A DNA stretch of 64,000 bases from Trypanosoma brucei (GCA_000002445.1 CH464492.1:1-64000); one strand, 5' to 3'; counted from the first letter of the stretch, positions 8,006-52,664 are shown. Made by a program: numbers and translations. The notes: generated by a model from the sequence alone, not told the origin.

Positions 8006-8918
8006 TGGTGGTAAGGGGTAAAATAGAGTGTAAAAATAGAAGTACTCAAGTTATGGGAGGGGTGCAATTAGTGAGTGAATCATTTAGTAAGTGAGAAAGC
8101 TAAAAATAACACAACGAATATTATTAAAAGATGTTTGAGGAAAGAAATGTAGATGAAGTGCGCACAGTCACACACACAAACATGACTATGTGTATTATTA
8201 TACTGTAGGAGATGATGAAGGGAACAATCATGGGAAAACATAGTTAAGTGTTGAAGTGAAATGGAGCCATTACATTGTTTGCAATGATAGAGGTAGCAAA
8301 AAAAATACTAAAGAGAAGGAAATAAAGTATGGAGTGAAACAACGGGATGATCAAAAGCCTACTGGAGAAGGAAGAGGTACAGGAAAAAACTGTGATTCAC
8401 ATTTTACAGAGAAAACTGATAAATGCTAATGTATTTCTCACAAATATAGATTAGAAGTGAATGCAGAGATGTTAGTAACCAAAAACAGTAACAGTAGTTA
8501 AAAAAGATACTGAGATAGACGTCTCGTGATTAAACCGAATGGTTGTGCAGTTATTGCAAAAAAATAGTAACATTCTTAGTAAAGCTGCGCACAGATAGTA
8601 CATCTTGATAATGCAATCCACATAACAATGAATATAGGGAAAATATGAAGAATACAAGGAGTATCAGAATACACACAGTAGAAGGCTAGAGATATACCCA
8701 AATCTTACTACTTAAAAAAATGTAGGTACGTACTCAAAGATAAGATACCAATATTGAGCATAAACAATTCAACAGATGTTCCATAAAAATCAAGGCATTA
8801 CATAAATATAAATACTAATTTCTTAACCAATAACATTATAAGGGAAAGTGACTTCCTTTCAAAAATTTCTGAGCTTTTCTTACAAATCTCTCAAAAAATT
8901 TAAAGGCATGTTAGGGAA

Positions 8919-9699
8919 ATGAAATTTTATATCTTGAGAACTTTACTATTACCGTTTTTATTTCTAAAAGTAGTGTGTTTACACTCAATAACTCTTCAAA
9001 AGGACCAAACTGTAAATAAACAAACAAATATAATAGAGAATAACACTAAGAATCCCAGAGTGTTTGTGGTTGTAGCTCAAACTCATACAACTCAAGTATG
9101 GTGTAAGCTGATATTGAGTTCCAAATTAAGCAAAGTTGATATTATCACAATTGCGATGGAAGGTTTGTACAGCCATGTTAAAAGACCTAGATGAGTTATG
9201 GAATTGTTGGAAAGACATAATGCAAGTGATTAGGATATTATGATAACTGTTGATGGGTCCGATGTTATCCTTAATGATGGAAATAAGTATGAAACTACTA
9301 AAGGTTATTTTATTCCAAATACTGCAGAAAGTGAAAAGAAGTTTAATGGAGATGATATAGTAAAGGAGAAAATAGAGAGATGTTACTAGTTTTTCAATGT
9401 CGTTCACAGGAAAGAAGAGAATAATAAACTTGTGTCATTTACTAAAACCACATCCTACTGAAAAACCTTACCTTGTCGGTGGAAATATAATAACCAGAGT
9501 TTGGGCGTTAAAGATATTTGAGTTTGAATTTAGAGAATCACTTGAAGGAAGTGAGAAATGGTGGTCAGAGCAGAGCATTTACAAACCGTTGTTAATATGG
9601 AGCGTTACACAGGAAGAAGCTGTTGAAAAAAGATTTGTTTTGAAGAGAGTAATGAGCGGATTGGATTATGAGGAGAGGCATTTCTATTCCAAATAATGA
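8919..9699 (+). pseudogene. Conserved VSG-array-associated ORF family with signal peptide, copy a (frameshifted); possibly ESAG3-like (identity unverified)
   Basis: MKFYILRTLLLPFLFLKVVCLHS… signal peptide. Shares …GLYSHVKRPRW…DGSD(V/I)I…KEE(D/N)(K/N)KL…(T/S)GKPYL(V/S)GG.I(I/A)RVWA(L/F)K…WSEQSIYKPLLIWS… with 20146-20625, 40700-41400(-) and 49000-49760. The coding sequence is split over three frames. Confidence 0.5.
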
Positions 9700-10324
9700 T
9701 GAGCTTGGTATAACCTAATTTATTCACTGTCTAGGGCATACAATTGTGTAGGAGGAAAGAGCTAAATTGATTGCTAAATATCTTACTTTGACGCGTGATT
9801 GAAAAGAAGAAATTTTTGTGGGAAAAATATAAAGTAATGTGAAACTTTTGCGATTAGTGAAGATGAATGGTATTTCGAATGTAGAGAGATTTGTGATGGT
9901 GCTTTAAAAAAGGGATATTTGTGTGAGGCTGAGAAAATGTAGCAATCCACAACAGAATAATTTCCCGATAGGCAAGTGGCCGTGACCAAAAGTGGAAACC
10001 CCGCCGAATAACACGGAGTTAGCCACCAGAAACCCCTCATATAAAACTAAAGAAGGCTATATAACGGAGTAGGACAGCGCGGCTTCGTCGCTAGAAACTA
10101 AAGCAAAGACCTCTCCAGCCAAGCGAAGAACTCATTAGCAGAGCAGCCGGGCTAAAACCGAGCGGAGCTGTAGGCATTGTGCAAACAACAAAATAAAAGC
10201 ACCCGGTAAAGTTAGTATGTAACAAATAATATGTTGTGACCAAAAGGAATCTTGAAAATGCAACCACGCGATGCTCCAAATATTCTAACTCACAAGAAGT
10301 AGAGTCGAAGAAGCCAAAAGACAA

Positions 10325-14680: not shown

Positions 14681-14939
14681 TATAACTATTTTTCTATATT
14701 TTATGGAATTTATGAGATTTTTTATTTTGAAAGAATTTGGTAAATTACTAAAATTTACGAAATTTGATACATTTTAAAACTTTTTGATAAAAATATGAAA
14801 GTCAATGTATATTAATGATAATATAAATTTTTTATGAAAGTGTACTATGGGTATACAGAATTATGGTGACATTTTATGGAAATTTAGTGGTATTATAAAA
14901 TAGTTTTTCTAGTTTATGTGCGTTAATTAGGGCTACAAT

Positions 14940-15615
14940 GATAATAATAATAATAATGATAGGAGAGGAGAGTGTTGTGAGTGTTTGTGTATACTAATAT
15001 TATAATAAGAGTATTAATAATAATAATAATAATAATGATAGGAGAGGAGAGTGTTGTGAGTGTGTGTATATACGAATATTATAATGAGAGTATTAATAAT
15101 AGTAATAATAATAATAATAGTAATAATAATAGTAATGATAGGAGAGTGTGTTGTGAGTGTGTGTATATACGAATATTTTAATAAGAGCAGTAATAATAAT
15201 AATAATAATAATGATAGTAATAATAATAGTAATGATAGGAGAGTGTGTTGTGAGTGTGTGTATATACGAATATTTTAATAAGAGCAGTAATAATAGTAAT
15301 AATAATAATAATGACAATAGAAAAGTGTTGTGAGTGTGTATATACGAATATTATAATTAGATCAGTAATAATGATAATAACAATAGGAGAGTGTGTTGTG
15401 AGTGTGTGTATATACGAATATTTTAATAAGAGCAGTAATAATAGTAATAATAATAATGATAGTAATAATAATAGTAATGATAGGAGAGTGTGTTGTGAGT
15501 GTGTGTATATACGAATATTTTAATAAGAGCAGTAATAATAGTAATAATAATAATAATGACAATAGAAAAGTGTTGTGAGTGTGTATATACGAATATTATA
15601 ATAAGAGTATTAATA

Positions 15616-15678
<63 letters not shown>

Positions 15679-15900
15679 GGAGAGTGTTGTGAGTGTGTGT
15701 ATATACAAATATTATTATAAGAGCAGTAATAATAATAATAATAATAGGAGAGTGTTGTGAGTGTTTGTGTATACTAATATTATAATAAGAGTATTAATAA
15801 TAATGATGATAATAATAATGATAATAGGAGAGTGTTGTGAGAGTGTGTATACTAATACTCTAATAAAAGTGATGAACATAAAATAGGGAAGCAATACAGA
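14940..15900 (+). repeat. Long 70-bp repeat array (about 12-13 imperfect units, about 1 kb) including a pure (TAA)n run at about 15625-15690
   Basis: Tandem units of (TAA/TGA)n + GGAGAGTGTGTTGTGAGTGTGTGTATATACGAATATT(T/A)TAATAAGAG. The six-frame ORFs here (14981-15921) are repeat artefacts. Confidence 0.9.
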
Positions 15901-16537
15901 AGCGTTTATAATAATGGCCATGGTGCTATGTGAGTATGTGACTTAGTGAAACAGAAAAGCGAAGTGGTATATGTGTGGCCTCAAACGCAAAATTAACGAA
16001 TGGCACCATTGTTCACGAGAAGACATTAAACTGAACATGAGTGGGAAAGAGAATGCGGTGTGCAATCAAATGTCTTTGCTACGTCATTCGCAGAGACACT
16101 GTCATAAAATTAAAAAATGAGGAAAGAAAATGTGGAACGTAACAATATAATACTGTTGAATATGCGGCAGTACACATGAAACAAATACATCAGTACCCAA
16201 TGATGCAGCATATATCATCTAAACGTGGAGATGTGCTACTGCATAGATAATGGTCACCTCAATTTAGATAACCATAATAATTGAACATGCATGATTACCA
16301 GAGGCTGTGAGAAGTTCTGGAAAAGCATAGAAGATTGATATTTACCGTAGTAAAATGTATATAAATATATCAATAGAGATAGTATAATGACTTGTAATAT
16401 AGGACGCAATTAGAGGAGTCGAACGGCAAGTAACAGGATCCACAATTCCCCACAGACACGGTGATGGACAAAGCGAGCCCAAAAAGAAACCCCCCTTTAA
16501 CTCTTTTTACAGAAGTAAGGTCTTAGCCACAAGCTGC

Positions 16538-18091
16538 ATGCAAGCCATTCAAGACTCAACAATTAAGATGTGCAAACAACTGATGCTCTTGCTGATCTTG
16601 TGTTCGATTCCGCCATCGGGAGCCAACGTCGGAGAAGCGGATAATTTAGCTGTTTTCGCAGCGGTTTGTGAGTTGTTCCAGATCGCTGAGGGGGAACTTC
16701 CTCCGGACGAACAGGTGACAGATTCAGCAAACGCCGTCCGCCAGCTCGAAGCACTCAACATGTCCGTAGCAGAGGACAAGTGGCGCCAGCAGTTCTACAA
16801 AGGCAACTACGAAAAGATATCCTGGCAGGAAGCCAAAGATGCAGGCCTTTCGCCACACGAAAGCTGGAAAACGAAATGGGAACGATGGCAGCAGGCGGCA
16901 CTCAGCACCAAACCGGAAGCCGAGCCCGGAAAAACCATAGCAGACCAAGGCTTCAATGAGTTAACGGGAATTTCCAAAAAAGCAGTCCAAGCAAAAGTAG
17001 CAGCGCTGCTGGCCAAAGTCGGACACCTGGAAGCCGAACGCGCCACAGCAGAACAAGAAATAATAAGCGCGAGCAACGCAGAGTTGAGCAAAAAACTAAA
17101 CAAAGCGTTATACGGAGTCGAAACTGGGAGAGGCGACTTCGGTAAAACAGCTGGAGCAACGGGGGCAGCGAAAACACTGGATGCGTGTAGCACGGCTGGA
17201 ACCATCGACAACCAACAACCACTAGCATATGTTATGATGTGCCTTTGTCTAGAAACAGGGTCGACCAAAACCGGCAAGATCTGTGCAAAAGACCACGCAC
17301 TAACCAAGGCATGGAACGATGCAAACCCAAAAGTCAAGCAAGCATTCGACGACATGCGCAACTTGTGCCCGAGCGGGAAAAAGACGCCAATAACAGCATA
17401 CCAGATACGGAAAGCACTCTCAGCAGTACAGGCCTTCATACGAATGCACAGCGGCACCGGCTATCTAGGAGGGTTCAACAGCGGGAGCTGCAACGGGAAT
17501 GTCGCTAACGGCATATGCGTAAAATACGACCACAAAATAACAGCCGGCGCAAACGGTTTCACAGAACTAACGTACGCCGCCAACATGCTGGAAGCGGCTA
17601 GTCTGCTAGAAAACAGGCAACACGCGGTTCAAAAAGCCAACCAACTGGCACACGCGATCAACGCAGAAGCTTCAGCAGCGTGGCTAATATCGAAAGAAGT
17701 GGAAGCACTGCAGAAACTGGAAAGGGCAGCGGCAGCACAGGTGCCAACCACCAGCCAGGCACCAGGGACAAGCAAGCAACCATCGGTGGAGGAACAAAAT
17801 AAATGCAAAAATGCTACCAATAAAACAGCGGAAGGATGCTCGGCTATCAACTGCGACTTCGACAACGAAAAAAAGGAATGCAAACCTAAAGATGGGGAAG
17901 GACAGACAAGCACAGCAACAGGAGAGCAAGCTACAGGAGCAGATGCCAAAAAGTGCTCCGATAAGAAAAAACAAGAAGACTGTAAAGATGGCTGCAAATG
18001 GGATGGAAAAGAATGCAAAGATTCTTCTATTCTAGCAAACAAACAATTCGCCCTAATGCTTTCTGCTGAATTTGTGGCCTTGCTGTTTTAA
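16538..18091 (+). CDS. VSG: Variant surface glycoprotein, intact (b-type N-domain), canonical GPI signal
   Basis: Signal peptide MCKQLMLLLILCSIPPSGANVG (the true start is probably the Met at 16568). Contains …YLGGFNSGSCNGNVANGICVKYD…. C-terminus …CKDGCKWDGKECKDSSILANKQFALMLSAEFVALLF*. Perfect 16-mer in the 3'UTR. Confidence 0.88.
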   Translation: MQAIQDSTIKMCKQLMLLLILCSIPPSGANVGEADNLAVFAAVCELFQIAEGELPPDEQVTDSANAVRQLEALNMSVAEDKWRQQFYKGNYEKISWQEAKDAGLSPHESWKTKWERWQQAALSTKPEAEPGKTIADQGFNELTGISKKAVQAKVAALLAKVGHLEAERATAEQEIISASNAELSKKLNKALYGVETGRGDFGKTAGATGAAKTLDACSTAGTIDNQQPLAYVMMCLCLETGSTKTGKICAKDHALTKAWNDANPKVKQAFDDMRNLCPSGKKTPITAYQIRKALSAVQAFIRMHSGTGYLGGFNSGSCNGNVANGICVKYDHKITAGANGFTELTYAANMLEAASLLENRQHAVQKANQLAHAINAEASAAWLISKEVEALQKLERAAAAQVPTTSQAPGTSKQPSVEEQNKCKNATNKTAEGCSAINCDFDNEKKECKPKDGEGQTSTATGEQATGADAKKCSDKKKQEDCKDGCKWDGKECKDSSILANKQFALMLSAEFVALLF

Positions 18092-18147
18092 AATTTCCCC
18101 CTCTTTTTAAAAGATTTTTTGCTAAATTTTTGCTACTGGAAAACTTC

Positions 18148-18163
18148 TGATATATTTTAACAC
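18148..18163 (+). promoter_or_regulatory. Conserved VSG 3'UTR 16-mer (mRNA stability element)
   Basis: Exact TGATATATTTTAACAC about 55 nt downstream of the VSG stop codon. Confidence 0.8.
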
Positions 18164-18289
18164 CTAAATTCGGCTGAGTTTTTTTCGTTGGTTGTAAAAA
18201 ATCTGATTCTGTAAATTTTTTTTGTTTTCTGGCACCTAAAAGAATTTCTCTCTTTTTTTTCCTGTTTTTTTTTGAGTTTTTTTTTGTGA

Positions 18290-18345
18290 AGGGAGGTAGG
18301 GGGTTAGGGTTAGTGTTATGGTTAGCGTTAGGGTTAGGGTTTTAA
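18290..18345 (+). repeat. Interstitial telomere-like hexamer tract (degenerate TTAGGG x about 7)
   Basis: GGTAGGGGGTTAGGGTTAGTGTTATGGTTAGCGTTAGGGTTAGGGTT, about 200 bp downstream of the VSG stop. Confidence 0.85.
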
Positions 18346-18789
18346 TTTACCTTTTTTGGCTTTTTTATAATTTGCCATTTTTTTCTTTGCGATGCAGCGG
18401 CTTTTTTTTATATTATGGTTGGCGCTTATTCAGAGAGTAGGCAACTTCGTCTTCATATTTTTCACCTATTTATTTTATTTCCACATTGTTACAATACCAC
18501 TTTTTAATCTTTTGTGAATTTCCGGTTTGCATTTCGGGTTGCGCCCGGCTTAAATAAATATATATATATATGTTTTTAACGCTGGCGCGTGGCAGTGTAG
18601 CTGCGCGAAACGAATTGCTTTTGAAGCATAAATAATCTAAAAAGAGAGTTATTCTAAACTAGGAGATTATTACGATCAGCAGTTAAGGAACGACTTCCAG
18701 ATCTGCCCCTGCCAGCAGACGTCTAAAGCCGCTCAACTGTCATGGCCGCATTTTCAATCCCAAATGAAACGAGAATAAAAAGTGCACAC

Positions 18790-19001
18790 TTAGTGAGGAT
18801 GGCAAAAAACAAGTAGAAAAAGAAGCAGCAAAAGAAGGAGGGAAAGATTAGAAGAAAGATAAGTGTACCAGACATGGCACTAATCTACAAGCTTTTGAAA
18901 AGGACAGCAACTGTAAATGGGAAGATAACAAGTGCAAGAATTCCAGTTTTCTTGTCAATAAAAAATTTGCTGTGATGGCTGCTGCTTTTGTGGATTTGTA
19001 A
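18790..19001 (+). pseudogene. VSG C-terminal fragment only (C-domain plus GPI signal)
   Basis: …[49 protein letters not shown]. No N-domain lies upstream. Confidence 0.7.
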
Positions 19002-19224
19002 AATTTTAGGTATTTTTTTTATAAATATGTTGTTTTCTAAGAAAATTACTTTTGTAATAATTTGCTAATATTTTCTAAACGTTGATGTATTTCAACACTT
19101 TATGATTGATATGTGCGACTTTTAGTAACATGTGTATGAACGTGGCATATTGGTGCAAAGTAGTAGGATAATAGTGTGTGAAAAATGTGTGCTATTCTAA
19201 TTTAGTTTAGTTTAGTTTTTAAAA

Positions 19225-19320
19225 TAATAGGTAGGGTTATAACGGTAGTGATAATAATAATGATGATATCGATATGATTGTATTGCGAGTCCGAATATAC
19301 TAATATTATATTAAGAGTTA
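19225..19320 (+). repeat. 70-bp repeat unit(s)
   Basis: GGTAGGGTTATAACGGTAGTGATAATAATAATGATGATATCGATATGATTGTATTGCGAGTCCGAATATACTAATATTATATTAAGAG. Confidence 0.7.
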
Positions 19321-20145
19321 TGGTGAAAACCGAATGAAAAGAAAAAAAGGAGCATATAAAAACAATGATAAGACTGCAATGGAAATAGGTGAATGAGTGA
19401 GAGGGAGGGTAAGAGACTAAGACAAATAGTGGCTGAATACATACAGTTGCGGCATAAACGCTGTGATGTGTATTATCACAGATGTGATAGTAATGGAGAG
19501 GACAGTAAGGAAGGCACAGAGTTCAATGTATAGCTCAGATAAGCTTGCTCTCTTATCCGCAGAAGCAGCAATAGAGGATGAAAAAGAAGAAATGGAAATG
19601 CGGAATGCGGAATGAAACATCTTGGAGCAGAACAGAACTCTAGAGAAAAATTAGAAAGAGATTGTGCAGCACCTTATACACATAAGTGGATAGATGCCAT
19701 CGCGTAGATAATGGTTGCACAAGAGAATTTGTAGGTAATAAAGCTATGATGATGAGAGTCTTGTGTTAAAAGCGGATGCCGGGATAGTTAGCAAAGGCAA
19801 CTGGTAAGACTCCTAGCGAATCAGTACAATTAGCTACTGTAGTTCCCATAACTACGATGAATGGAAAAATGTGAATAATTAAAGTAACAGTGTCATGCAT
19901 GTCGTGCGCAGAACCAACTACGGATAGAAACTAACTTTAAAAACAAAACCCAGGAATCTTTGCTCAAAGATAAGCTACAGATTGTGAGGATACGCCCTTT
20001 AAAAATTAGATCAAAACCATTTTAATGCATTATTTACATATGTAAACGTGGTTTCCTTAACTATTCACTTTAGAGGTGCAAGTGATTTCTTTTCTTAAAT
20101 TTCAATGTGATAATCTTACGAACTTTTAAAATTTTATGATAGTTT

Positions 20146-20625
20146 ATGGAATAAAATTCTATATCTTGAGAACTTTAATTTTACCGTTGATATTACATTT
20201 AGTTTGCTAAAGTTCAATAGCGCTTCAGTATAATGAAATAAAAAACAAAACAAATATAATAGAGAATAACACTAAGAATCCCAGAGTGTTTGTGGTTGTA
20301 GCTCAAACTCATACAACTCAAGTATGGTGTAGGCTCATATTGAGTTCCAAATTAAGCAAAGTTGATATTATCACAATTGCGATGGAAGGTTTGTACAGCC
20401 ATTTTAAAAGACCTAGATGAGTTATGGAATTGTTGGAAAGACATAATGCAAGTGATTAGGATATTATGATAACTGTTGATGGGTCCGATGTTATCCTTAA
20501 TGATGGAAATAAGTATGAAACTACTAAAGATTATTTTATTCCAAATACTGCAGAAAGTGAAAAGAAGTTTAATGGAGATGATATAGTAAAGGAGAAAATA
20601 GAGAGATGTTATTTATGACAACATC
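20146..20625 (+). pseudogene. Conserved array-associated ORF family, copy b (3'-truncated; near-identical to copy a over about 470 bp)
   Basis: The sequence from 20270-20615 is almost base-for-base identical to 9045-9390. Homology ends abruptly at about 20625. Confidence 0.55.
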
Positions 20626-30097: not shown

Positions 30098-31636
30098 TCA
30101 CCTGCGGCCGGCTCCGTTCAACCGCAATGAGAAACTGTGCCAGCCTTTTAGAGAAACATATATCCTGCACACACACACACCTTCTACCGCAAACCCGACA
30201 CGTAACTCCTTCAAACTGGGACAGCTCATCAAGTGCAGCGACGTTTCTTCGCAGTCGCCGCGTTGGCTGGTAACAGCACGCTCTACCTTCATACCGTGCA
30301 TCTTCTTTTGATGTAGGGTGAGGCCAGTTTTGCTAGCACACTGCCTTCCGCATGTCGGGCACACCAACATGGATGTGTTTGTATGCGGGGAATCAGTGGC
30401 ACACAATTTTGTGCTTTTGCTGCATTTAAGCTCGACTCCCTCACCTTTGTGGAAAGCCTTACAGTGTCGGATGAGGGAGTTCCTGCAACTGAGCACTTTT
30501 TGGCACACACCACACTGCACCTCGCCTTTCCCCGGGACGTCAACGTTTCCCTCACGGGTACACTTACGAGGGAATTGCACCACCACCACGGTACCGTCCT
30601 CCGTCACTATGCTCTTATGCTTGAATTTCTTGTGTAGTGACAGGGAAGAGCGTGTACCGAAGCTCGCCTCGCACAGGTCACATTTAAACGGCAGCTTCCG
30701 TGTATCCTGAGAGGCTGGCGCTGCTGGGACGCTACCATCTCCTTGCACTGAGTCCTCGTTCTCTCGCCTCCTTTTCACGCGGCAACTACCGCTACCTATG
30801 CCATGTATTGTTCTAAGGTGGTGTAATAGTCGGCCTGGCACTGCGAATTTGGAGGCACATAGTGTACAATGAAGCACCTGCGGTCTCATCGGGACTCGTG
30901 TGCTCGATGGTAAAGGAACGATCGCCACCACTGGAGGGGGCTCCGGGGGGATATCCACTGCAGGTGTTACATCGTCGTATTTGATCCTCCGGAGGGCATC
31001 AGCTCGCACAAAGCCGTTTTTGTTTACCATATGCGTTACAGCACTCGAGCGGCATTGGTATGTGGTATCACATTCCGTACATTTGGTCGGTTCGGAGGTT
31101 CTCTGAAGAGTGCGTGTCGCAACAGTTGGGGTTGTTTGTGTTTGTATTGTTGGCCCTATCGCTGCATGTTTCTGGTTACACCATCGGCACTGTGGAGACA
31201 CACTCGGGTTGATCTTTCGCAACATCCATCCATAGTATCTTGAAGACCCAACACGAAAGCGTGCCAGTGCCGTTTCTTCTTCCCTCGTTAGTTCTTCTTT
31301 ATGTTTTGTTGGAAAGTGGTTGCCAGTGATACCAAACCTATGAGTGTTCTCATGGACTTCTTCCGACCTAAGCACTCGCTTCGCATAAGCAATGATGTCG
31401 GGGATCCATGTGTCTCGCAAGTGTGGTAAACCAGCGGCCTTTTTGGTCATGTCATCGCAAACCTCATTCCGTTTCACGCCACAATGGACGAACACAAATT
31501 GCAGTCGGATAAGCACCTTCCTTCTCTGAACTTGAAGCAGAAGCCTCCATAGTCGTCTCAGAATTGGGTCCGTTACGGCTAGGGGGCCTGTCTGCAGTGC
31601 TTTTAACATTGACAGCGAGTCAGAGAAAATAGACAA
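30098..31636 (-). CDS. ingi ORF segment: RNase H-like domain plus five C2H2 zinc fingers
   Basis: …FVHCGVKRNEVCDDMTKKAA… (RNase H motif); CTECDTTYQCRSSAVTHM; HCTLCASKFAVPGRLLHHLRTIH; FKCDLCEASFGTRSSLSLHKKFKH; CGVCQKVLSCRNSLIRHCKAFH; CPTCGRQCASKTGLTLHQKKMH. Confidence 0.85.
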   Translation of the reverse strand: MSIFSDSLSMLKALQTGPLAVTDPILRRLWRLLLQVQRRKVLIRLQFVFVHCGVKRNEVCDDMTKKAAGLPHLRDTWIPDIIAYAKRVLRSEEVHENTHRFGITGNHFPTKHKEELTREEETALARFRVGSSRYYGWMLRKINPSVSPQCRWCNQKHAAIGPTIQTQTTPTVATRTLQRTSEPTKCTECDTTYQCRSSAVTHMVNKNGFVRADALRRIKYDDVTPAVDIPPEPPPVVAIVPLPSSTRVPMRPQVLHCTLCASKFAVPGRLLHHLRTIHGIGSGSCRVKRRRENEDSVQGDGSVPAAPASQDTRKLPFKCDLCEASFGTRSSLSLHKKFKHKSIVTEDGTVVVVQFPRKCTREGNVDVPGKGEVQCGVCQKVLSCRNSLIRHCKAFHKGEGVELKCSKSTKLCATDSPHTNTSMLVCPTCGRQCASKTGLTLHQKKMHGMKVERAVTSQRGDCEETSLHLMSCPSLKELRVGFAVEGVCVCRIYVSLKGWHSFSLRLNGAGRR

Positions 31637-32400
31637 CCTGCTCGGTGTGCTTCTGCATACCGGAAGCCATTTCAGCAGCCGTTGCAGTCCTATCTCTAAT
31701 GCTACGCATTCCGCTCTGTAACTGCATGAGAGTTCCCCTGCTCCGGTCTTGGGTGCACGAATCAGCGCTCGCTTCTATAGAGCAGGGCAGCTGCCTCGGA
31801 CTTCTCACCGAGGGACACGGATCCATCAGTCCACAATTCGTAGTGCTCTCGCCGCGGTGGCTCCTTCCCCCTCCGTGCAAAATGCCGTTCAATCCACTTT
31901 TCGGAAGCCTCTCTTTTGGCATCGTCAGGGTCATCAGCGCACGCAGGCTTTATCTGCGTGTGAAATAGTGATCGGCAGCTGTGGCGGAGCGTCGATGTCT
32001 CTAGTAGGTGCTCGCGTGGCTCAATGCGGAGGTGAAGGTAAGACCGCATGGTGCGGGAATGTAGGGCTTTGACTAGATGTTTGCTGTGGTATACTTCCTC
32101 AGCACTGCGCCGCAAACATCCGCCTCGTGACTCACACATCAGCATGAATTTCATGCTGCGCACAAGAGTGGTCGTCTTGAGTGGCAGGAGGTTTGCCTCC
32201 AGCAGAGAGTCCTCTTTGCGCGTCCCATGGGGTATGCCAGCTATGATGCAACTGGCTTTGTGTTGTGCTGCTGAAAGGAGGTCCCGACTTCGTTCCGAAG
32301 CGTCCCAGTACCATACCTCAATGCCATACATGGTGTGTGCCTGTACGAGTGCTAGATAAAGAGCTCTCAACACTTGTCGTCTTGGCCCCCATGTAGAAGC

Positions 32401-34065
32401 TTATATGGCTGCTATCTGCAGTAGTCTGAAGTTCATCTTGCGTCTCGTTTCGGCCGCATGTGTTTCCATCCCTTGCAGACACTGGAATGTTACTCCTAGA
32501 AGCTTCGGTGTCCCGTCAGCTCCTATTCTTTCGCCGTCCAGTTGCAATGTAAGGGGGTGGCGCTCTGTACACCCGAAGAGTGTGCACTTTGTTTTCGCTA
32601 TATTGACAGACATGAAGTACTCTTTTGACCACTGTAACATCACGTTTAGGCCGCATTGTAGTGTGTGGTTGATGACATCCCTCTCTGTGTGCCTCGCAAG
32701 AGCGTCAGGTCGTCTGCAAAGAATCCGTGCTGCAGTAACGGCACTTCTGCAAGGCGTTGGCTCAACGAGTTCATGACAATAATGAACATGATTGGGCCAA
32801 GGACAGTTTCCTTGTGGCACTCCTCGCTCAAATGTTCTGCTGCTGGAAAGCTTCTCCTTGAATCTCACTCTGCCAGTTCGGTTACTCAGAAATGATACGC
32901 ACCACTTCACAATGTGGGGTGATACCTTCATTCTGTGCATTTCCCTCGCAATTTTGTCGTGGTCCACTGTATCAAATGCCTTCTCGTAGTCGACGAATAC
33001 AGCACCCGTACGATATTGGTGCGTGGGACGGCAGAGGGCAGCGCGGACGTGCAGGAGTTGTTCGAGTGTTGAGCATCCGGGGCAAAAGCCTGATTGCTGC
33101 GGCGTCAGCTGGGACTCAACAGTGTCTCTAAGTCTCGCGGCAATTATGCACTCCATGACTTTGCAGAGACAGCTCGTGAGCGTCACAGGCCTGTAAGAAT
33201 CGAGGTCCTCCCACTTTTTTCCGGCCTTCAGGATGGGGATGATAACACCAGTCTTCCATGCAGACGGCACGACTCCCGTTCGTAGGCTCTCATTGAATAG
33301 CCTCAGAACAACATTCAGTGCTGTTCTACCGAGATGTTGCAGTGCCTCGTTGTATAAGCAATCAGGTCCGGGTGCGGATCCACTCGGAAGCAGTTTGATC
33401 GATCTCCGTAGTTCAGCCATCGTGATGGGACTGAACTCACTCGCTATCGTCTTTATGGGTGCCGGTGGGTGTGAGTCGGGGTGCCTTCTTGCGCGGGACG
33501 AGTACAGTTTACTGAACCTCTCAGCTTGACGGTAGTCCGTGATGGCCGCGTTATCAACAAGCACAGCCGGTGTGGTTAGTGGTCGTGGTGCATATACCTT
33601 CTTGACAATGTGCCAACTGCAGCGGTCTGACACCGCAAGTCTGGAGCATAGCGTGCTCCATCTCTTCTTTGTGGTACGGTCCAGGATCTGCTTACGCGTG
33701 GCTACCAACTTTTCCCTTCTGTGGGAGGGTCCGCATCCAGCGATCTCTTCATCGAGTTTCGGGAGTGTATGTGTCCAATGTGGTGGCGTTGCTCTGCAGC
33801 CACGGGGGACGGAGACCTTCGTCGCAATGCGGATGGCGGAGCTCAATTTCTGTTCCAGGGTGTTGACGTTCTTCTCTCTACCAATTTTCCTGCAGAGCTC
33901 GTCAACCTTGAGACGGAAATTCCTCCAGTCAGCTTTTAGCCATGCGTACATGGGCTTTCGAAGCCGCGGGCAACTCAGTGCATCTGTGTCGTCTCCAACG
34001 ATAACGTCGAAAAATATGTGATGGTGATCGCTATCGGGAGAATACAGCGATGTCCACGTGTACAC
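32401..34065 (-). CDS. ingi ORF segment: reverse transcriptase domain
   Basis: …VFVDYEKAFDTVDHDKIAREMHRMKV… (RT motifs). The adjacent ORF 32646..32831(-) contains …HGFFADDLTLL… (YXDD-type active site). Confidence 0.85.
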   Translation of the reverse strand: MYTWTSLYSPDSDHHHIFFDVIVGDDTDALSCPRLRKPMYAWLKADWRNFRLKVDELCRKIGREKNVNTLEQKLSSAIRIATKVSVPRGCRATPPHWTHTLPKLDEEIAGCGPSHRREKLVATRKQILDRTTKKRWSTLCSRLAVSDRCSWHIVKKVYAPRPLTTPAVLVDNAAITDYRQAERFSKLYSSRARRHPDSHPPAPIKTIASEFSPITMAELRRSIKLLPSGSAPGPDCLYNEALQHLGRTALNVVLRLFNESLRTGVVPSAWKTGVIIPILKAGKKWEDLDSYRPVTLTSCLCKVMECIIAARLRDTVESQLTPQQSGFCPGCSTLEQLLHVRAALCRPTHQYRTGAVFVDYEKAFDTVDHDKIAREMHRMKVSPHIVKWCVSFLSNRTGRVRFKEKLSSSRTFERGVPQGNCPWPNHVHYCHELVEPTPCRSAVTAARILCRRPDALARHTERDVINHTLQCGLNVMLQWSKEYFMSVNIAKTKCTLFGCTERHPLTLQLDGERIGADGTPKLLGVTFQCLQGMETHAAETRRKMNFRLLQIAAI

Positions 34066-40335: not shown

Positions 40336-40699
40336 GGTTGAACGTTATGTAGATTACAGTGTGAAATGGCTTACTTGAGTGTATAAAAATAAATGAGTTG
40401 TTATGAGGTGGTTCTCCTCTCGTGTTGCCAGTTGCTACGTGGATCTTGGCAGTGATTGCCTTGCATCTATTCTTTTGTCTTCAACGATGTTGGTTGCTTC
40501 GCCTCGTTGATAAAGGCAATCACAGACCTATAATTTTTCTCCTTCAAAGAAATCCACTTCTATAAATATATCCCCAGAAACTTCCCGACACTCAAAATCC
40601 TATTTCCTTCCATCTATTATATACGTTTGAACTTTACCCTAAAATCTCTCAGGCTAAACTGCATCCTTTCCAATTACTTATACCAAGTAAGATTTTTCA

Positions 40700-41400
40700 C
40701 AATCAGTCTTACTTTCTCCTCCCATGCAATTGGATGCCCAGGAAAATAAATGAATTCAGCCGCTCAAATCCCACCACTGTTTGTAATACAAAAGAAACTC
40801 TCTCGAAAATCCAATCCAATCATTCCTCTCTCCAAAACAAATCTCTGTCCAGCAGCTTCCGCCTGAATTGCACTCCAAATTAGTAAAGGCTTGTAAATAC
40901 TCTGCTCTGACCACCATTCCAAGCGGACATTTCAATAACTCCCAAAAATGCATATTCAAATATCTTAAATGCCCATACTCTGGCTATTAAACCTCCTCCA
41001 CTAAGATAAGGTTTTCCACTTGTTTGTGACATAAGTTGATGAGGCAACTTCTTATCCTCTTCTTTTCTGTAACCGAAAATAAACAACTAGTAATATCCCT
41101 CCATACTCTTATTGTAAATATCCTCCTCTCTAAACTTATCTTCATTTTCTGCAGTATTTTTTATAAAATATTCCACAGCACTCTCATACTTATTTCCATC
41201 ACTAACAATAACATCAAACCCATTAACATTTATTACAATATCCTCATCACATGCATTCTGTATCTCAAAAACTTCCATAAACCATCTGGGCCTTTTAACA
41301 TGGCTATACAAACTTCAGATCGCAACTGTAATAATTTCAAGATGGCTTAGTTTGGCACTCAATATCAGCCTACACCTTCTTGAGTTGTATGAGTTTGTAC
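40700..41400 (-). pseudogene. Conserved array-associated ORF family, copy c (minus strand, frameshifted)
   Basis: ORFs 41087..41311(-) MYSHVKRPRWFMEVFEIQNACDEDIVINVNGFDVIVSDGNKYESAVEYFIKNTAENEDKF… and 40880..41086(-) …YRKEEDKKLPHQLMSQTSGKPYLSGGGLIARVWAFKIFEY…. Confidence 0.55.
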
Positions 41401-41984
41401 AACAGCCACAAACGCTCTGTGATTCTTAGGTTGATTCTCTGTCACATTTGTTTTGTTATTTGCTTCATCTTGATGTGATATTGCACTTAAACACACTAAA
41501 TGTTATAGCAACATTAAGAGTAAAGTTCGCAAGACGCCGAATTTTACCTCCTAGGAAACTTTCAAAATTTGAAAAATATGTAATAAAAAAATAAATGGCT
41601 TAGGAAAAGGAGATATAACCACAAGGAGAATTTTAATTTTGAACAAGTTTCCAATTCTGATAAGAAAATATACTTCTCTGTTTCTAAATCTAAAATTTCA
41701 ACATTTATGGTCTGTAGTGGGCTCTTTTTTTTTTACTAACGTCACTACCCCATTTGACCTGTACACTAATATTATTATCTCCATTGCTGTTCTTTAAATA
41801 ATTTACATGAGGTAACAAGAGTGGCCATATTCACATTCTTTCTGAAATGCGCATGTCCCGTACCTTTTTCTTTCTCTCCCTGTCCGCTTACTTACTGTCT
41901 TTTTGCCTTGGCAATGGTATATCTGCTACTATTGCTACAGTCCATTTACTTTTAAACACTGTTTTTATTATAATTTTAGCATGC

Positions 41985-48009: not shown

Positions 48010-48175
48010 TGAACATTAATTAGCGTTATAATAATAATAATAATAAGAGAGTGTTGTGAGTGTGTGTATACAAATATTATAATAATAATATTAATAATAA
48101 TAGTAATAATGATAATGATAATAGGAGAGTGTTGTGAGTGTGCATAAACTGATATTATAATGAGAGCAGTAATAA
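48010..48175 (+). repeat. 70-bp repeat units (about 2)
   Basis: TTAGCGTTATAATAATAATAATAAGAGAGTGTTGTGAGTGTGTGTATACAAATATTATAATAATAATA…GATAATAGGAGAGTGTTGTGAGTGTGCATAAACTGATATTATAATGAGAG. Confidence 0.8.
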
Positions 48176-48999
48176 TACTGAATGGATGGGAAAGATGAAG
48201 GCACTGAAAATAATAAAAAAAGTGCAATGAGAATATGTTAGTGAAATCACAGTGAGTAAGTGAGGGAGCAATAAACACACAAAGAATATTATTATTAAAG
48301 GAAGTGCTAAAAACTGAGAAATAAATGTAGATGGAATAAGTGGAATTTCAAATATAACTATGACGATGGGCATAAAATATACAAAGAGATGTTGGAGAGA
48401 CAGAATACGGTATATAGGTATAATTGAATTGGTAGGTTATCCACAGCTATGGAGGTAGCAGAATAAAATGAACGAAAATACAGAAAACAACTGGATTTTG
48501 TAACCAGAAAAAAAGTACAATGACTAAAGAGGTGATTTGCTTCACATTTGACACATAAATATATAAATAATCGTGCAGAGATAGCGGTAGCATCAAGAAC
48601 AGTAGTTTATATATCTAACCTTATAGGAATTTTAAAATGAAATTAGGTGGAAGGAGTATTTGTCACAAGAAAATAATAAAATTACTGGCATATCTCAACA
48701 CATAAGTTAAACTATTTACTGCAATTGCTATAAAAATGCATAAAGAGGAACTTTGAATGCAGGAAAGAGCTGATTTAACGACTGCGCTGTGAATCATCAA
48801 GCTAATGTGTATGGCTAAAACTATAGATTCGTGCTCAAAGATAGGTTGCAGACACCGAGTATACTCTATTCAACAGATTCATCATAACAATATCGTGGGA
48901 TTACTTATATGAACATATTAGTCGTACTGCTCACTTTTTCCCTTACGGTTTCCACGTTATTCTTTTAACAGTCTCCAAATTTAAAGGTATGTTAGGGAA

Positions 49000-49760
49000 A
49001 TGAAATTTTATATCTTGAGAACTTTACTATTACTGTTGATATAACCTTTAGTGTGTTTAAGTGCAATATCCCTTCAATATACAGTGGATAGAATAACAAA
49101 TATGACACATAATAATACTACGTAACCCAGAATTATTGTGATTGTAGTTCAAACTCATGTAACTCAAGGATGGTATAGGCTCATATTGAGTGCCAAACTA
49201 AGCCGTGTTGAAATTGTTACAATTGCAATGGGAGGTTTGTACAGTCATGTTAAAAGGCCTAGATGGGTAATGGAATATTTAGAGAAACAGAATGCAAGTA
49301 ATGAGGATATTGTAATTCATTTGGATGGGTCTGATATTATAGTTAGTGATGAGGTGGGGTATAAGAATGCGGTGAAATATGTTATAAAAAATAGCGTAGC
49401 TAATGAAGATAAGTTTAGTGAAGAGGATAATCACAACGAGCTTGTGCAGAGATGTCTTTGGCTTTTTAATGTTGGTTACAGGAAAGAAGAGGATAAAAAG
49501 TTACCGCATTTACTGAAATCGCCTCCTAGTGGAAAACCCTATCTTAGTGATGGTGGTTTGATAGCCAGAGTATGGGCATTTAAGAAATTTAATATGCATT
49601 TGGAGAGTTACTAAAGGAAAGTGATGAAGGGTGGTCAGAGCAGAGTATTTACAAACCGTTGTTAATATGGAGTGCCATCCAGTAAGAAGCTGTTGGACAG
49701 AGATTTGTTTTGCGGAAAGGGATAATTGCATTGTATTATGAGGAGAGATTCTTTTTGATT
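49000..49760 (+). pseudogene. Conserved array-associated ORF family, copy d (longest continuous ORF segment in the window, 158 aa; 5' and 3' parts in other frames)
   Basis: Start context GTTAGGGAAATGAAATTTTATATCTTGAGAACTTTACTATTAC is shared with copy a. ORF 49138..49614 reads MIVVQTHVTQGWYRLILSAKLSRVEIVTIAMGGLYSHVKRPRWVMEYLEKQNASNEDIVIHLDGSDIIVSDE…KEEDKKLPHLLKSPPSGKPYLSDGGLIARVWAFKKF. A downstream …WSEQSIYKPLLIWS… sits out of frame. Confidence 0.55.
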
Positions 49761-50281
49761 CTGACTAATAGTGTGGCGAGTGGAGAGATGCTATTTATTT
49801 ATTTTGATGGACAGCCGATCGCGTGAAAAGAGAAAGCCAAGTTAATTGTGAAAAATCTTACTTTGTATGAAGAGTTAGAAAAAAAGGAATTTGGTTTGGC
49901 AGACTTGGGAAGAATTCAAACTCATACAAAAGATAAAAGGAAATGGGAATTTGGGTATTCGAATATTTGTACTGAAGCGGTTGAAGGCAGTGATTTGTTA
50001 AATGCCACAAAGCTGTGAAACTATACAAACTGTCAAAGATATCAGGACGTCCGAAACGAACGGCGATTAGCCGGGCCGGCGGGCACCAGTGGTTGGCAAA
50101 GGAAAAAACAGGGAACACCATGATTTCAAGAGCTATCCAATCGCATCCATAAAAGTGCTCCAGGCGCAACTGACAAAGCAACAGCAAGCGGCGCTAAACC
50201 TCAGCAGTAAAAAGCACCCTCCAAAGGAACAAAACAGCTCATCGATCGCAGTATTTCAGGTTTATTTTTCTTTTCTGTGGA

Positions 50282-51883
50282 GTGGAAAAGCAGTTAGCAA
50301 GTCGACAGTTGCGTATTCGGATGACCCCAACACCTAAAGCAACGGCGGAACTACAGCGCATCTTGATTCTATACATCGGTGTGCTGTTCTTTGGCCTCAA
50401 CCTAGTAGAGGCCGCCACCGACGCCAACGCCGCACAACACCGCGTGATGTGTCTTCTCACCGCACTAGCCAACACCCCCATCAAGCAAGCAGAAATAACA
50501 GGCAGTGGCGGTTCCGCAAGAGAGACAATCAGTGCGTTGAACGTAACAACGAGCTCAAGCGAGTGGCAAAAAATCTTTGACACCAGTCTCAGCCGGGAAG
50601 CAGGCACAAACTTCCCAGAGACGCTCAAAGACAAGCCGTACGCAGACATCTGGAAAGCGAACTGGGCGTCATGGTGGAAAGCAGCAAAGCATGCCAAAAA
50701 CACTAACATTGGCCAGCCAACACACGACCTATACAAGCCCATCTCATCAGCAATACAAAAAGCAGCCGCAAACAAGAAGATACGGCAACTAGCACTACAA
50801 GCAGAAACCTTAGGTCGAATGTACGACGAAGCGGCGCAACAGGCAACAAGTACCCAAAAGCAACTAGCGCAAACAAAATTAACAGCAGCGCTGTACGGAG
50901 GCGACGGCAGCAAAGCAACACCAGGAACAGACCACACCCGCAAAGCATTTACAACCTGGGACGCCGCATGCACAGGAGACGAAAATGGCAAATCAATCGT
51001 AGGCGACTTTTTCTGCCTTTGTGCCCCAAAAGACGGGACAACGAAAGAATGTGCTGATGGTTACGCCCCGACGCGCTGGGACGCCACCATAGCAGACCCA
51101 GCGGCGGAGTGGAAAAAGCTACAGACGTCTTGCCCAACTGCTAAGCTCAGCAGCGCCAAAGAGCATGATATAAGAATGGCCATAGGAGCGTTCCTACAAG
51201 CCTTGACTACCAGAACTCAAGGCGGCACAACAAAAACTTACCTAGGGAGCAGCGACACAGGCGCATGCGACGGGACAAGCAGCAAGCTATGCGTCGATTA
51301 CACCGGCTACTTCAGCAAGCAAGCAGGTAAAACCTACAAAGATATACCATGGCTCAAATCCCTCGAAGATGCGGTTACGGCCCTAGAAAACATGCACAAG
51401 CAGGAAGAAAAAGCAAATAACCTCGACGCGCAGCTGGCAAACCTGCTGAAACAAGCCAATCTTATCTACGCCGCTGCATTAAACGGCGACTTGATGACCG
51501 AGACAGCGGTCAAAGCCGAAGTTGTTCCTGAAGGGAACCCAAGACAAAATGTAAACTGCGCGCAGCATGACAACAACAAAACTTGCGTTTCTCCATGCAA
51601 GTGGGAATCTAAAGGCGACAAAGGAACATGCAAATTAGATGAAAGCAAAGTTACAACTCAGACAAATACAGAAAGAACAGGAACAGGAGATGGCGCAGCA
51701 AAACATGGAGTAAATTGCTCTAGCCATGCAACCAAGGAGGCATGCGAGGGATTCCAAGGAACTTCAGTCCCAGGCAAAAAAGCTGTTTGTGGCTGGATTG
51801 AAGGCAAATGTCAGGATTCCAGTTTTCTTGTAAACAAAAAATTCGCCCTCATGGTTTCTGCATTTGTGGCCATGCTTTTCTAA
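50282..51883 (+). CDS. VSG: Variant surface glycoprotein, intact (b-type), canonical GPI signal; probable true start at the Met at 50324
   Basis: MTPTPKATAELQRILILYIGVLFFGLNLVEAATDANAA signal peptide. Contains …YLGSSDTGACDGTSSKLCVDYTG…. C-terminus …[31 protein letters not shown]. Exact 16-mer downstream. Confidence 0.88.
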   Translation: MEKQLASRQLRIRMTPTPKATAELQRILILYIGVLFFGLNLVEAATDANAAQHRVMCLLTALANTPIKQAEITGSGGSARETISALNVTTSSSEWQKIFDTSLSREAGTNFPETLKDKPYADIWKANWASWWKAAKHAKNTNIGQPTHDLYKPISSAIQKAAANKKIRQLALQAETLGRMYDEAAQQATSTQKQLAQTKLTAALYGGDGSKATPGTDHTRKAFTTWDAACTGDENGKSIVGDFFCLCAPKDGTTKECADGYAPTRWDATIADPAAEWKKLQTSCPTAKLSSAKEHDIRMAIGAFLQALTTRTQGGTTKTYLGSSDTGACDGTSSKLCVDYTGYFSKQAGKTYKDIPWLKSLEDAVTALENMHKQEEKANNLDAQLANLLKQANLIYAAALNGDLMTETAVKAEVVPEGNPRQNVNCAQHDNNKTCVSPCKWESKGDKGTCKLDESKVTTQTNTERTGTGDGAAKHGVNCSSHATKEACEGFQGTSVPGKKAVCGWIEGKCQDSSFLVNKKFALMVSAFVAMLF

Positions 51884-51919: not shown

Positions 51920-51935
51920 TGATATATTTTAACAC
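51920..51935 (+). promoter_or_regulatory. Conserved VSG 3'UTR 16-mer
   Basis: Exact TGATATATTTTAACAC about 35 nt after the stop codon. Confidence 0.8.
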
Positions 51936-52045: not shown

Positions 52046-52094
52046 AAGAAGGTAGGAGGAATGAAGGTAGGTTGGAGTTAGGGTTAGGGTTATT
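52046..52094 (+). repeat. Interstitial telomere-like tract (GGTAGG/TTAGGG degenerate hexamers)
   Basis: AGGTAGGAGGAATGAAGGTAGGTTGGAGTTAGGGTTAGGGTTA. Confidence 0.8.
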
Positions 52095-52185
52095 TTTTCT
52101 CTTAGCAATAAGTGTTTTTACCAGCACTTAACCGTAACGACTTTAGCTCTTTTTTTTAATCATGCGAGTCGCTCTTTTTTAATGC

Positions 52186-52240
52186 AACCCTAACCCTTAT
52201 TCTTCCACTCCCCCCCCCAACGCCCAACTCCGCTTAACTT
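52186..52240 (+). repeat. Inverted C-strand telomere-like tract (CCCTAA x2 plus C-rich run), head-to-head with 52046-52094
   Basis: AACCCTAACCCTTATTCTTCCACTCCCCCCCCCAACGCCCAACTCC. Confidence 0.7.
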
Positions 52241-52664
52241 TTTCACCTGCACCTTCGCCCGTATTTGTAACTTTTTTCTGCTTCTGTGGATTTCAGCTCT
52301 GCATTTTGAGCTGCGCGCGGTATCAATTTTTTTTAAAGCTGGAGCGCGGCCTATAACACCGCACGCAATTCTTTTACGCCGCCTCGCTGCAGTATCGGTG
52401 CGCCAAACAATTTTTGTTTTCAAAAAGAAAATAAAGGAAGGGGAAAATATTTGTGAGATGGCAATTATAAAGAGCAGAAATTAAGGAGCGATTAGACAAT
52501 CTGCTGCTGGCACCCAACGGCCAAAGACGATAAACTGCCAGAGGTACGTTTTTAACCCCTAAGCCGTCGAGGATAAAATGTGCACATTGAGTGAGAGAAA
52601 TCAAGAAGATAGAACAAAAAGAAGCGCGAACAGATGGAGACAAAAAAGAGAACTATTATTTTTT

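What the first reader, a model, noticed from the sequence alone, without database searches (positions are those of the whole stretch)
18090..18620. Interstitial telomere repeat tract downstream of an intact VSG that is also preceded by an unusually long 70-bp array
The intact VSG at 16538-18091 has three unusual flanks. Upstream is a roughly 1-kb 70-bp repeat array (14940-15900) containing a pure (TAA)n of about 20 units; array VSGs usually have only 1-3 units. Downstream are a perfect 3'UTR 16-mer and then, about 200 bp after the stop, a degenerate (TTAGGG)n tract of about 7 units (18290-18345). This arrangement resembles a formerly telomeric VSG cassette (expression-site or minichromosomal) captured into an internal array. 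It could also mark an ancient telomere position. Immediately beyond it lies only a VSG C-terminal fragment (18790-19001).
Basis: partly seen in the sequence, partly recalled or inferred. Interest (0 to 1): 0.7.

Follow-up and report, generated by a model that had tools for sequence, protein, structure and literature searches.

The report
Telomere-type flank behind two internal VSGs
A short, decayed stretch of telomere repeat sits just behind an intact trypanosome coat-protein (VSG) gene deep inside a gene array. The same flank, with the same repeat in the same place, follows a second unrelated VSG 34 kb away, so it is a shared flank module and not a one-off scar or a lost chromosome end.

Summary
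An intact B-type VSG (16538-18091; T. b. brucei TREU927 XP_828095.1) has 11 70-bp repeat units upstream, including a pure (TAA)19. Downstream are a perfect 16-mer and, 198 nt after the stop codon, six in-phase TTAGGG units (three perfect), with the G-strand pointing away from the gene.

It is not unique. A second intact VSG (50321-51883; XP_828097.1) is only 27% identical in protein. It carries a homologous ~0.6-kb non-coding 3' flank (nhmmer E=5e-30) with a TTAGGG block at the same offset from its own perfect 16-mer. Both flanks run into a VSG C-terminal-domain remnant.

About 13 other VSG cassettes in the window and six flanks in T. equiperdum loci lack the tract, so it is not a generic array feature.

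Published work describes 'TTAGGG-like' repeats a few hundred bp 3' of telomere-proximal VSGs. These were seen in TREU927 minichromosomal reads and in expression site BES1. My best reading is a telomere-type 3' flank that became array-internal once, was then duplicated, and later had its VSG coding regions exchanged.

I could not align the flank to a real telomeric flank, because no such DNA was reachable. This is a new member of a known kind, of modest interest.

The parts
14937..15826 (+). 70-bp repeat array upstream of VSG1, 11 units
   Evidence: TRF rows with periods 68-97. There are 11 GTGTTGTGAGTGTG cores at 14972-15832, against 1-2 at every other cassette.
15620..15676 (+). Pure (TAA)19 inside one 70-bp unit
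   Evidence: Regex count. TRF reports a 27-unit imperfect run at 15598-15678.
16538..18091 (+). Intact B-type VSG (VSG1), TREU927 XP_828095.1 / EAN78983.1
   Evidence: ORF. Pfam VSG_B plus Trypan_glycop_C. Exact-sequence look-up. It is 91% identical to EATRO1125 VSG 1125.186.
18092..18163 (+). VSG1 3'UTR with the TTTCCCCCTC motif and a perfect 16-mer (18148-18163)
   Evidence: Sequence and 16-mer search.
18164..18288 (+). T-rich proximal flank
   Evidence: Sequence. It aligns with the VSG2 flank at 53% identity.
18289..18343 (+). Degenerate telomere-repeat tract: a G-rich lead-in plus 6 in-phase TTAGGG units at 18304-18339
   Evidence: The G-rich strand runs 5'->3' away from the VSG.
18344..18725 (+). 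Distal non-coding flank, homologous to the VSG2 flank
   Evidence: nhmmer of flank 1 against flank 2 gives E=5e-30. blastx finds no VSG coding similarity. There is no Rfam match.
18726..19001 (+). VSG C-terminal-domain remnant with an in-frame stop
   Evidence: blastx matches residues ~403-493 of 495-aa VSGs at E=4e-11. blastn matches other VSG 3' ends.
19083..19098 (+). Degenerate 16-mer (2 mismatches) belonging to the C-terminal-domain remnant
48028..48177 (+). 70-bp repeats upstream of VSG2, 2 units only
   Evidence: TRF. Cores at 48051 and 48129.
50321..51883 (+). Intact B-type VSG (VSG2), TREU927 XP_828097.1 / EAN78985.1
   Evidence: Pfam. 100% match to P0022. Accessions. It is 27% identical to VSG1.
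51920..51935 (+). Perfect 16-mer of VSG2
52050..52092 (+). Second telomere-like block: a G-rich lead-in plus TTAGGGTTAGGGTTA at 52078-52092
   Evidence: It starts 132 nt after the 16-mer, against 135 nt at VSG1. It lies in the same alignment columns as the VSG1 tract.
52093..52547 (+). Distal flank of VSG2, homologous to 18344-18725
52188..52199 (-). Inverted telomere-like dodecamer (CCCTAACCCTTA on the + strand) about 95 nt after the VSG2 block
   Evidence: It has no counterpart in flank 1.
52548..52655 (+). Start of a C-terminal-domain remnant homologous to 18726-18830; similarity to flank 1 stops near 52655, about 0.5 kb before the domain hits of an ingi-like retroelement
   Evidence: 68% identity to the flank-1 remnant. 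Retroelement domains at 53161-57956 on the minus strand. The truncation point was read by eye.

Best explanation
The TTAGGG tract is one component of a roughly 0.6-kb 'telomere-type' VSG 3' flank. This is the arrangement described for telomere-proximal VSGs, in which a short degenerate TTAGGG block lies a few hundred bp after the gene and before the true telomere. In this TREU927 contig that flank lies inside a VSG array, behind two intact VSGs. At its distal end it is capped by a VSG C-terminal-domain remnant and the next cassette, not by a telomere.

Most likely history (inferred):
1. A telomere-proximal VSG site became internal once. This could have happened by recombination of the chromosome end with another array, or by copying of a telomeric cassette into an array.
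2. The flank plus remnant module was later duplicated.
3. The VSG coding regions were subsequently exchanged by ordinary cassette conversion, bounded by the 70-bp repeats and the 3'UTR. This would explain why the flanks are related but the genes are not.

The tract is a fossil with no demonstrated function. The predicted consequence, also inferred, is that these VSGs carry expression-site-like homology on both sides. This applies especially to VSG1, with its 11-unit 70-bp array. That homology could allow two-ended gene conversion into an expression site more readily than for ordinary array VSGs.
For: Shown here:
- The tract is real, non-random and oriented as a telomere would be.
- The only two telomere-like tracts in 64 kb lie 135 and 132 nt after the only two perfect 16-mers.
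- The two flanks are homologous across about 560 nt of non-coding DNA (nhmmer E=5e-30 and 4e-22; alignment; 54-62% identity by segment).
- The VSG proteins share only 27% identity.
- Both flanks lead into the same C-terminal-domain remnant.
- The flank type is absent from the other ~13 cassettes in the window and from six T. equiperdum VSG flanks.

From the literature:
- GGGTTA-like sequences lie about 300 bp after VSG2 in BES1, with the true telomere further out (PMC11229358).
- In BES clones the VSG-to-telomere distance is 200-1590 nt and the 70-bp tracts are 0.2-7.1 kb (PMC2567434).
- Chromosome-internal TTAGGG repeats are acknowledged in T. brucei (PMC8191777).
Against: - No bona fide telomeric VSG flank could be retrieved. 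'Telomere-type' therefore rests on position, orientation and published descriptions, not on sequence alignment.
- Four primer sequences from BES 3' flanks (Kieft 2024) do not match either flank. This is inconclusive, because BES flanks differ among themselves.
- VSG2 has only two 70-bp units, so the 'expression-site-like on both sides' picture holds for VSG1 only.
- The sample outside the window is small: six flanks, from a different subspecies.
- The functional consequence (privileged donor) is untested.
Confidence: 0.58

Rival explanations
1. This is an array flank subfamily with no telomeric history. On this view the roughly 0.6-kb flank is simply one of several 3'-flank families that spread by segmental duplication within arrays. 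The TTAGGG-like block would be a G/T-rich low-complexity patch that happens to resemble telomere repeats.
For: - There are two copies in one window, homologous well beyond the tract.
- Both are followed by array-type sequence: a C-terminal-domain remnant and then the next cassette.
- No long terminal repeat is present anywhere in the window.
- Upstream flank families clearly do spread this way.
Against: - Perfect TTAGGGTTAGGG is present in both copies against a chance expectation of 0.19 per window.
- The orientation is correct in both copies.
- Position and form match published descriptions of telomere-proximal VSG flanks.
Confidence: 0.2
2. This is a literal former chromosome end. On this view the tract at 18289-18343 is the eroded start of a real telomere that once ended the chromosome about 200 nt after the VSG. 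Everything distal would have been added later by end-to-array recombination.
For: - In some BES clones telomere repeats begin only 200 nt after the VSG, and here the distance is 198 nt.
- The G-strand orientation is correct.
- VSG1 has a long 70-bp array.
Against: - The approximately 380 nt distal to the tract and the following C-terminal-domain remnant are conserved between two loci whose VSGs are unrelated. The junction would therefore have to be old and single.
- T-rich sequence continues on both sides of the tract (by eye).
- BES1 shows that such blocks lie within the unique flank.
Confidence: 0.12
3. The repeats were inserted de novo at a repaired double-strand break, by telomerase or by capture of telomeric DNA. 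This is how short interstitial telomeric sequences arise in mammals.
For: The tract is short and interstitial. Such a mechanism is documented in vertebrates (PMC7215372 abstract).
Against: - The paralogous flank is not an 'empty site'. It carries the block at the same position.
- Non-homologous end-joining is reported absent in T. brucei (PMC12137147).
Confidence: 0.05
4. This is an assembly chimera that joins a telomeric clone to an internal array.
For: VSG arrays and telomeres are hard to assemble. No reads are available here to check.
Against: - The tract has only six degenerate units and is not a long perfect run.
- It is followed by unique sequence that is independently present, in diverged form, at a second locus with the same junctions.
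- It lies 18 kb and 46 kb from the window ends.
Confidence: 0.03

Closest known systems
Conserved 3' flank of telomere-proximal VSG genes (Aline & Stuart 1989, as cited by Hall et al. 2013; BES1 VSG2 flank in Kieft et al. 2024)
   Same: - A short TTAGGG-like block lies a few hundred bp after the VSG 3'UTR.
- The G-strand points away from the gene.
- A further stretch of unique flank follows the block.
- 70-bp repeats lie upstream.
   Different: - There is no terminal telomere. The flank ends in a VSG C-terminal-domain remnant, and the array continues for tens of kb.
- Sequence-level homology to a real telomeric flank was not tested.
Canonical subtelomeric array VSG cassette (1-2 70-bp repeats, VSG, 3'UTR with 16-mer, then the next cassette)
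   Same: - It has 70-bp repeats, an intact VSG and a perfect 16-mer.
- It is embedded among other VSG genes and pseudogenes and ingi elements.
   Different: - An extra ~0.6-kb non-coding flank with a telomere-like block, plus an orphan C-terminal-domain remnant, lies between the 3'UTR and the next cassette.
- VSG1 has 11 70-bp units instead of 1-2.
Short interstitial telomeric sequences (ITS) of vertebrate genomes
   Same: It is a few degenerate TTAGGG units at a non-terminal site.
   Different: - The block is inherited as part of a duplicated flank module. It was not inserted into an otherwise collinear empty site.
- It is tied to a specific gene-family flank.

Membership tests
Telomere-proximal VSG 3' flank | TTAGGG-like repeats within a few hundred bp 3' of the VSG | tested here: met
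   The tract starts 198 nt after the stop at VSG1 and about 170-195 nt after the stop at VSG2. Literature values are about 300 bp in BES1 and 200-1590 nt to the repeats in BES clones.
Telomere-proximal VSG 3' flank | G-rich strand runs 5'->3' away from the VSG, toward the chromosome end | tested here: met
   Both VSGs and both TTAGGG blocks are on the + strand.
Telomere-proximal VSG 3' flank | Flank ends in a long terminal (TTAGGG)n tract | tested here: not met
   The window holds no other telomere-like tract. Sequence continues 45 kb past VSG1 and 12 kb past VSG2.
Telomere-proximal VSG 3' flank | Sequence homology to the flanks of bona fide BES or minichromosomal VSGs | not testable with these tools
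   - No T. brucei telomeric DNA was reachable. TREU927 and Lister 427 contigs are not in the DNA index.
- The metagenome and prokaryote collections hold no VSG 3'UTRs.
- BES primer sequences do not match, which is inconclusive.
Telomere-proximal VSG 3' flank | Upstream 70-bp tract in the expression-site range (0.2-7.1 kb) | tested here: inconclusive
   The VSG1 array is 0.89 kb and within range. The VSG2 array is 0.15 kb and below it.
Canonical array VSG cassette | 70-bp repeat(s) upstream and a 3'UTR 16-mer downstream | tested here: met
Canonical array VSG cassette | 3'UTR followed directly by the next cassette's 70-bp region | tested here: not met
   About 560 nt of extra flank plus a C-terminal-domain remnant intervene. 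Compare L003, where the 70-bp-like sequence begins about 150 nt after the 16-mer.
Short interstitial telomeric sequence inserted at a break | A collinear 'empty' homologous site lacking the repeats | tested here: not met
   The only homologous flank carries the block at the same aligned position.
True telomere or assembly chimera | A long run of perfect hexamers at a sequence end | tested here: not met
   There are six units, three of them imperfect, at an internal position.

The most novel reading that the evidence does not exclude
Array-internal VSGs that keep a telomere-type 3' flank, and in the case of VSG1 also a long 70-bp array, could form a distinct 'pseudo-telomeric' donor class. Such genes could be copied into the active expression site by two-ended gene conversion, using homology to the expression site's own VSG-distal flank. 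They would then be activated earlier than ordinary intact array VSGs. This would link flank architecture to the VSG expression hierarchy. It would also mean that the 'TTAGGG-like' marker used to call VSGs telomeric is not fully specific.
Probability: 0.15. Interest if true: 0.6.

Novelty: new member of a known kind. Interest (0 to 1): 0.3.

Why it matters
The order in which VSGs are activated depends on what homology is available around the donor gene. Telomere-adjacent VSGs are copied by break-induced replication, and array genes by segmental conversion (PMC12137147). Long 70-bp tracts widen donor choice (PMC4858185).

An internal, intact VSG that keeps telomere-type homology on its 3' side is an in-between case. 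It can be tested against existing VSG-seq time courses.

The finding also has a practical use. 'TTAGGG-like' repeats have been used to label TREU927 reads as telomere-proximal. In that same strain the signature also occurs at two array-internal genes.

Otherwise the finding is a modest piece of subtelomere natural history. It documents that a telomere-type flank has ended up inside a VSG array.

Tried and rejected
- Exact-protein look-ups of VSG1 and VSG2, and of TREU927 homologues P0014 and P0022, returned no contigs. TREU927 DNA is not retrievable, so strain polymorphism and long-read checks were impossible.
- The only external DNA obtained was four T. equiperdum loci, L001-L004. They hold six usable VSG 3' flanks. 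None has a telomere-like tract or similarity to the flank.
- Pattern scans of the metagenome and prokaryote genome collections found nothing, as expected. The patterns were '16-mer + gap + TTAGGGTTAGGG' and the VSG 3'UTR motif pair.
- Primer sequences from BES 3' flanks (Kieft 2024 supplement) were searched in the window. Only chance-level matches with 4-5 edits (substitutions plus indels) appeared.
- blastx of the flank shows that 18164-18725 is not decayed VSG coding sequence. That ruled out the idea that the tract sits at a junction with a degraded VSG body.
- Rfam found no RNA family in 14800-19400.
- Single 'TTAATTAGGG' or 'GGTAGGGTTA' units just upstream of 70-bp arrays (14925-14934, 19229-19238) were considered as vestigial tracts and rejected. 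Each has one unit only and lies at a different position.
- Literature searches for VSG 1125.186 or 1125.142 expression data found nothing. Marcello & Barry 2007, Aline & Stuart 1989 and Aline 1985 are not held.

Full report
**1. What is there**

The window is a VSG array from Trypanosoma brucei brucei TREU927. The two intact VSG proteins discussed here are exact matches to XP_828095.1/EAN78983.1 and XP_828097.1/EAN78985.1, both on a 286,308-bp contig.

The ORF at 16538-18091 (+) encodes a 517-aa B-type VSG with Pfam VSG_B (E=3e-83) and Trypan_glycop_C. Its closest relative outside the strain is EATRO1125 VSG 1125.186, at 91% identity.

Upstream, TRF and a core-motif count show a 70-bp repeat array at 14937-15826 with 11 units. 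Every other cassette in the window has one or two units. One unit holds a pure (TAA)19 at 15620-15676.

Downstream lie the 3'UTR and a perfect 16-mer at 18148-18163, followed by a T-rich stretch. The telomere-like tract spans 18289-18343. It consists of a G-rich lead-in and then six in-phase hexamers: TTAGGG TTAGTG TTATGG TTAGCG TTAGGG TTAGGG.

The tract is far beyond chance. The dodecamer with up to one mismatch occurs five times, against 0.19 expected. The G-rich strand runs away from the gene, as at a real chromosome end.

**2. It is not unique**

The only other telomere-like tract in 64 kb is at 52050-52092, where TTAGGGTTAGGGTTA follows a similar G-rich lead-in. It lies 132 nt after the only other perfect 16-mer (51920-51935). 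That 16-mer belongs to a second intact B-type VSG at 50321-51883. At VSG1 the corresponding offset is 135 nt.

A pairwise alignment puts the two blocks in the same columns. nhmmer confirms that the non-coding flanks are homologous over about 560 nt, with E=5e-30 and 4e-22 in the two directions. Identity by segment is:
- T-rich part: 53%
- tract: 62%
- distal flank: 54%
- following C-terminal-domain remnant: 68%

The two VSG proteins, in contrast, are only 27% identical. No other copy of this flank exists in the window or in the four T. equiperdum loci I could fetch.

**3. What lies beyond the tract**

blastx shows that 18164-18725 has no similarity to VSG coding sequence. The stretch 18726-18998 is a complete VSG C-terminal domain with an in-frame stop (best E=4e-11). 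It is followed by its own 3'UTR with a degenerate 16-mer at 19083, and then by the next cassette's 70-bp region.

The VSG2 flank runs into the homologous start of the same remnant at about 52548. Similarity to flank 1 then stops near 52655, about 0.5 kb short of an ingi-like retroelement on the minus strand whose domain hits run from 53161 to 57956. I read this truncation point by eye.

The conserved module is therefore: 3'UTR, T-rich stretch, TTAGGG block, about 400 nt of unique flank, then an orphan C-terminal domain.

**4. How common it is**

tblastn and 16-mer mapping give about 15 VSG genes, pseudogenes or fragments in the window. Only these two have the tract. Six VSG 3' flanks in T. equiperdum loci L001-L003 have none. 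One of them (L003) has a perfect 16-mer followed almost at once by 70-bp-like sequence, which is the ordinary array arrangement.

The tract is also not a private scar of one gene.

**5. What is known**

- Hall et al. [quoted passage not shown] They used them to recognise telomere-proximal donors in TREU927. Their Table S1 marks five minichromosomal reads '[mc TTAGGG]'.
- Kieft et al. 2024 report GGGTTA-like sequences between VSG2 and the telomere in BES1. These cause mis-priming about 300 bp after the gene, and their amplicon sizes imply that the unique flank extends further, by my estimate to roughly 0.85 kb.
- Hertz-Fowler et al. [quoted passage not shown]
- Saha et al. [quoted passage not shown]
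- Long (TAA)n runs upstream of chromosome-internal VSGs were described in the 1980s. I know this only from titles in the reference list seen.

Each ingredient is therefore known.

**6. Interpretation**

The best reading, at confidence about 0.58, is that the tract belongs to a telomere-type VSG 3' flank that now lies inside an array. Two unrelated VSGs share the flank, including its junction with the C-terminal-domain remnant. The internalisation therefore happened once and was followed by duplication of the module. The coding regions were later replaced by ordinary cassette conversion between the 70-bp repeats and the 3'UTR.

This means the evidence speaks to the history of the locus. It does not show that this particular VSG was once telomeric.

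The steps that are shown are the anatomy, the homology, the orientation and the rarity. The steps that are inferred are the telomeric ancestry and the order of events. The ancestry rests on position and published description, not on alignment.

Rivals:
- An array-only flank family (0.2).
- A literal former chromosome end at the tract, with later distal addition (0.12). The 198-nt distance matches the shortest BES spacing, but the conserved distal flank argues against it.
- Break-repair insertion (0.05). The paralogous site is not empty, and NHEJ is reported absent in T. brucei.
- Assembly chimera (0.03).

**7. Possible consequence**

After a break in the active VSG, telomere-adjacent VSGs are copied by break-induced replication, and array genes are used through segmental conversion when homology exists. 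Longer 70-bp tracts broaden donor choice.

An internal VSG with telomere-type 3' homology, and in the case of VSG1 an 11-unit 70-bp array, could be copied by two-ended conversion more easily than its neighbours. This is a hypothesis only, at about 0.15 probability, and it can be tested with existing expression time courses.

**8. Verdict**

This is a new member of a known kind, of modest interest (0.3). The decisive missing step is an alignment against genuine telomeric VSG flanks, together with a genome-wide census.

Noticed in passing
window 52188-52199: CCCTAACCCTTA, the reverse complement of a telomere-like dodecamer with 1 mismatch, lies about 95 nt downstream of the VSG2 TTAGGG block. 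Together they form a head-to-head pair of telomere-like repeats. The aligned position in the VSG1 flank (18418-18432) is not telomere-like. This is unexplained.
   Followed up: partly
window ~30098-34065 (-) and ~53161-57956 (-): Two ingi-like non-LTR retroelements with broken ORFs, carrying C2H2 zinc finger, reverse transcriptase and endonuclease domains. The C-terminal-domain remnant downstream of VSG2 loses similarity to flank 1 near 52655, about 0.5 kb before the domain hits of the second element; the element's own end was not mapped.
   Followed up: partly
window 8063-9902, 19359-20586, 40580-41608 (-), 48180-50320: A 1-2 kb upstream-flank family is shared by four VSG cassettes (nhmmer E down to 1e-141). 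It includes a 128-aa ORF (49228-49614) with no Pfam match. So 5' flanks spread as families independently of the 3' flank type.
   Followed up: partly
window 1-22 kb (+), 35-46 kb (-), 47-64 kb (+): VSG orientation flips twice within the window, with a retroelement at the first flip. The array is not a simple head-to-tail series.
   Followed up: no
window 59293-59346: A 20-nt tandem repeat (ACGCAAGCAACACGGACGCA, 2.8 copies, 97% match) lies inside a VSG pseudogene region.
   Followed up: no
window 14925-14934 and 19229-19238; L003 5393-5402: A single TTAGGG-like unit (TTAATTAGGG or GGTAGGGTTA) recurs just upstream of 70-bp repeat regions. It has one unit only and is distinct from the tract studied here.
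   Followed up: partly
window 18541-18588: An imperfect 48-nt palindrome (79% self-complementary), centred on an (AT)n run in the distal flank of VSG1, flanked by GC-rich segments.
   Followed up: no
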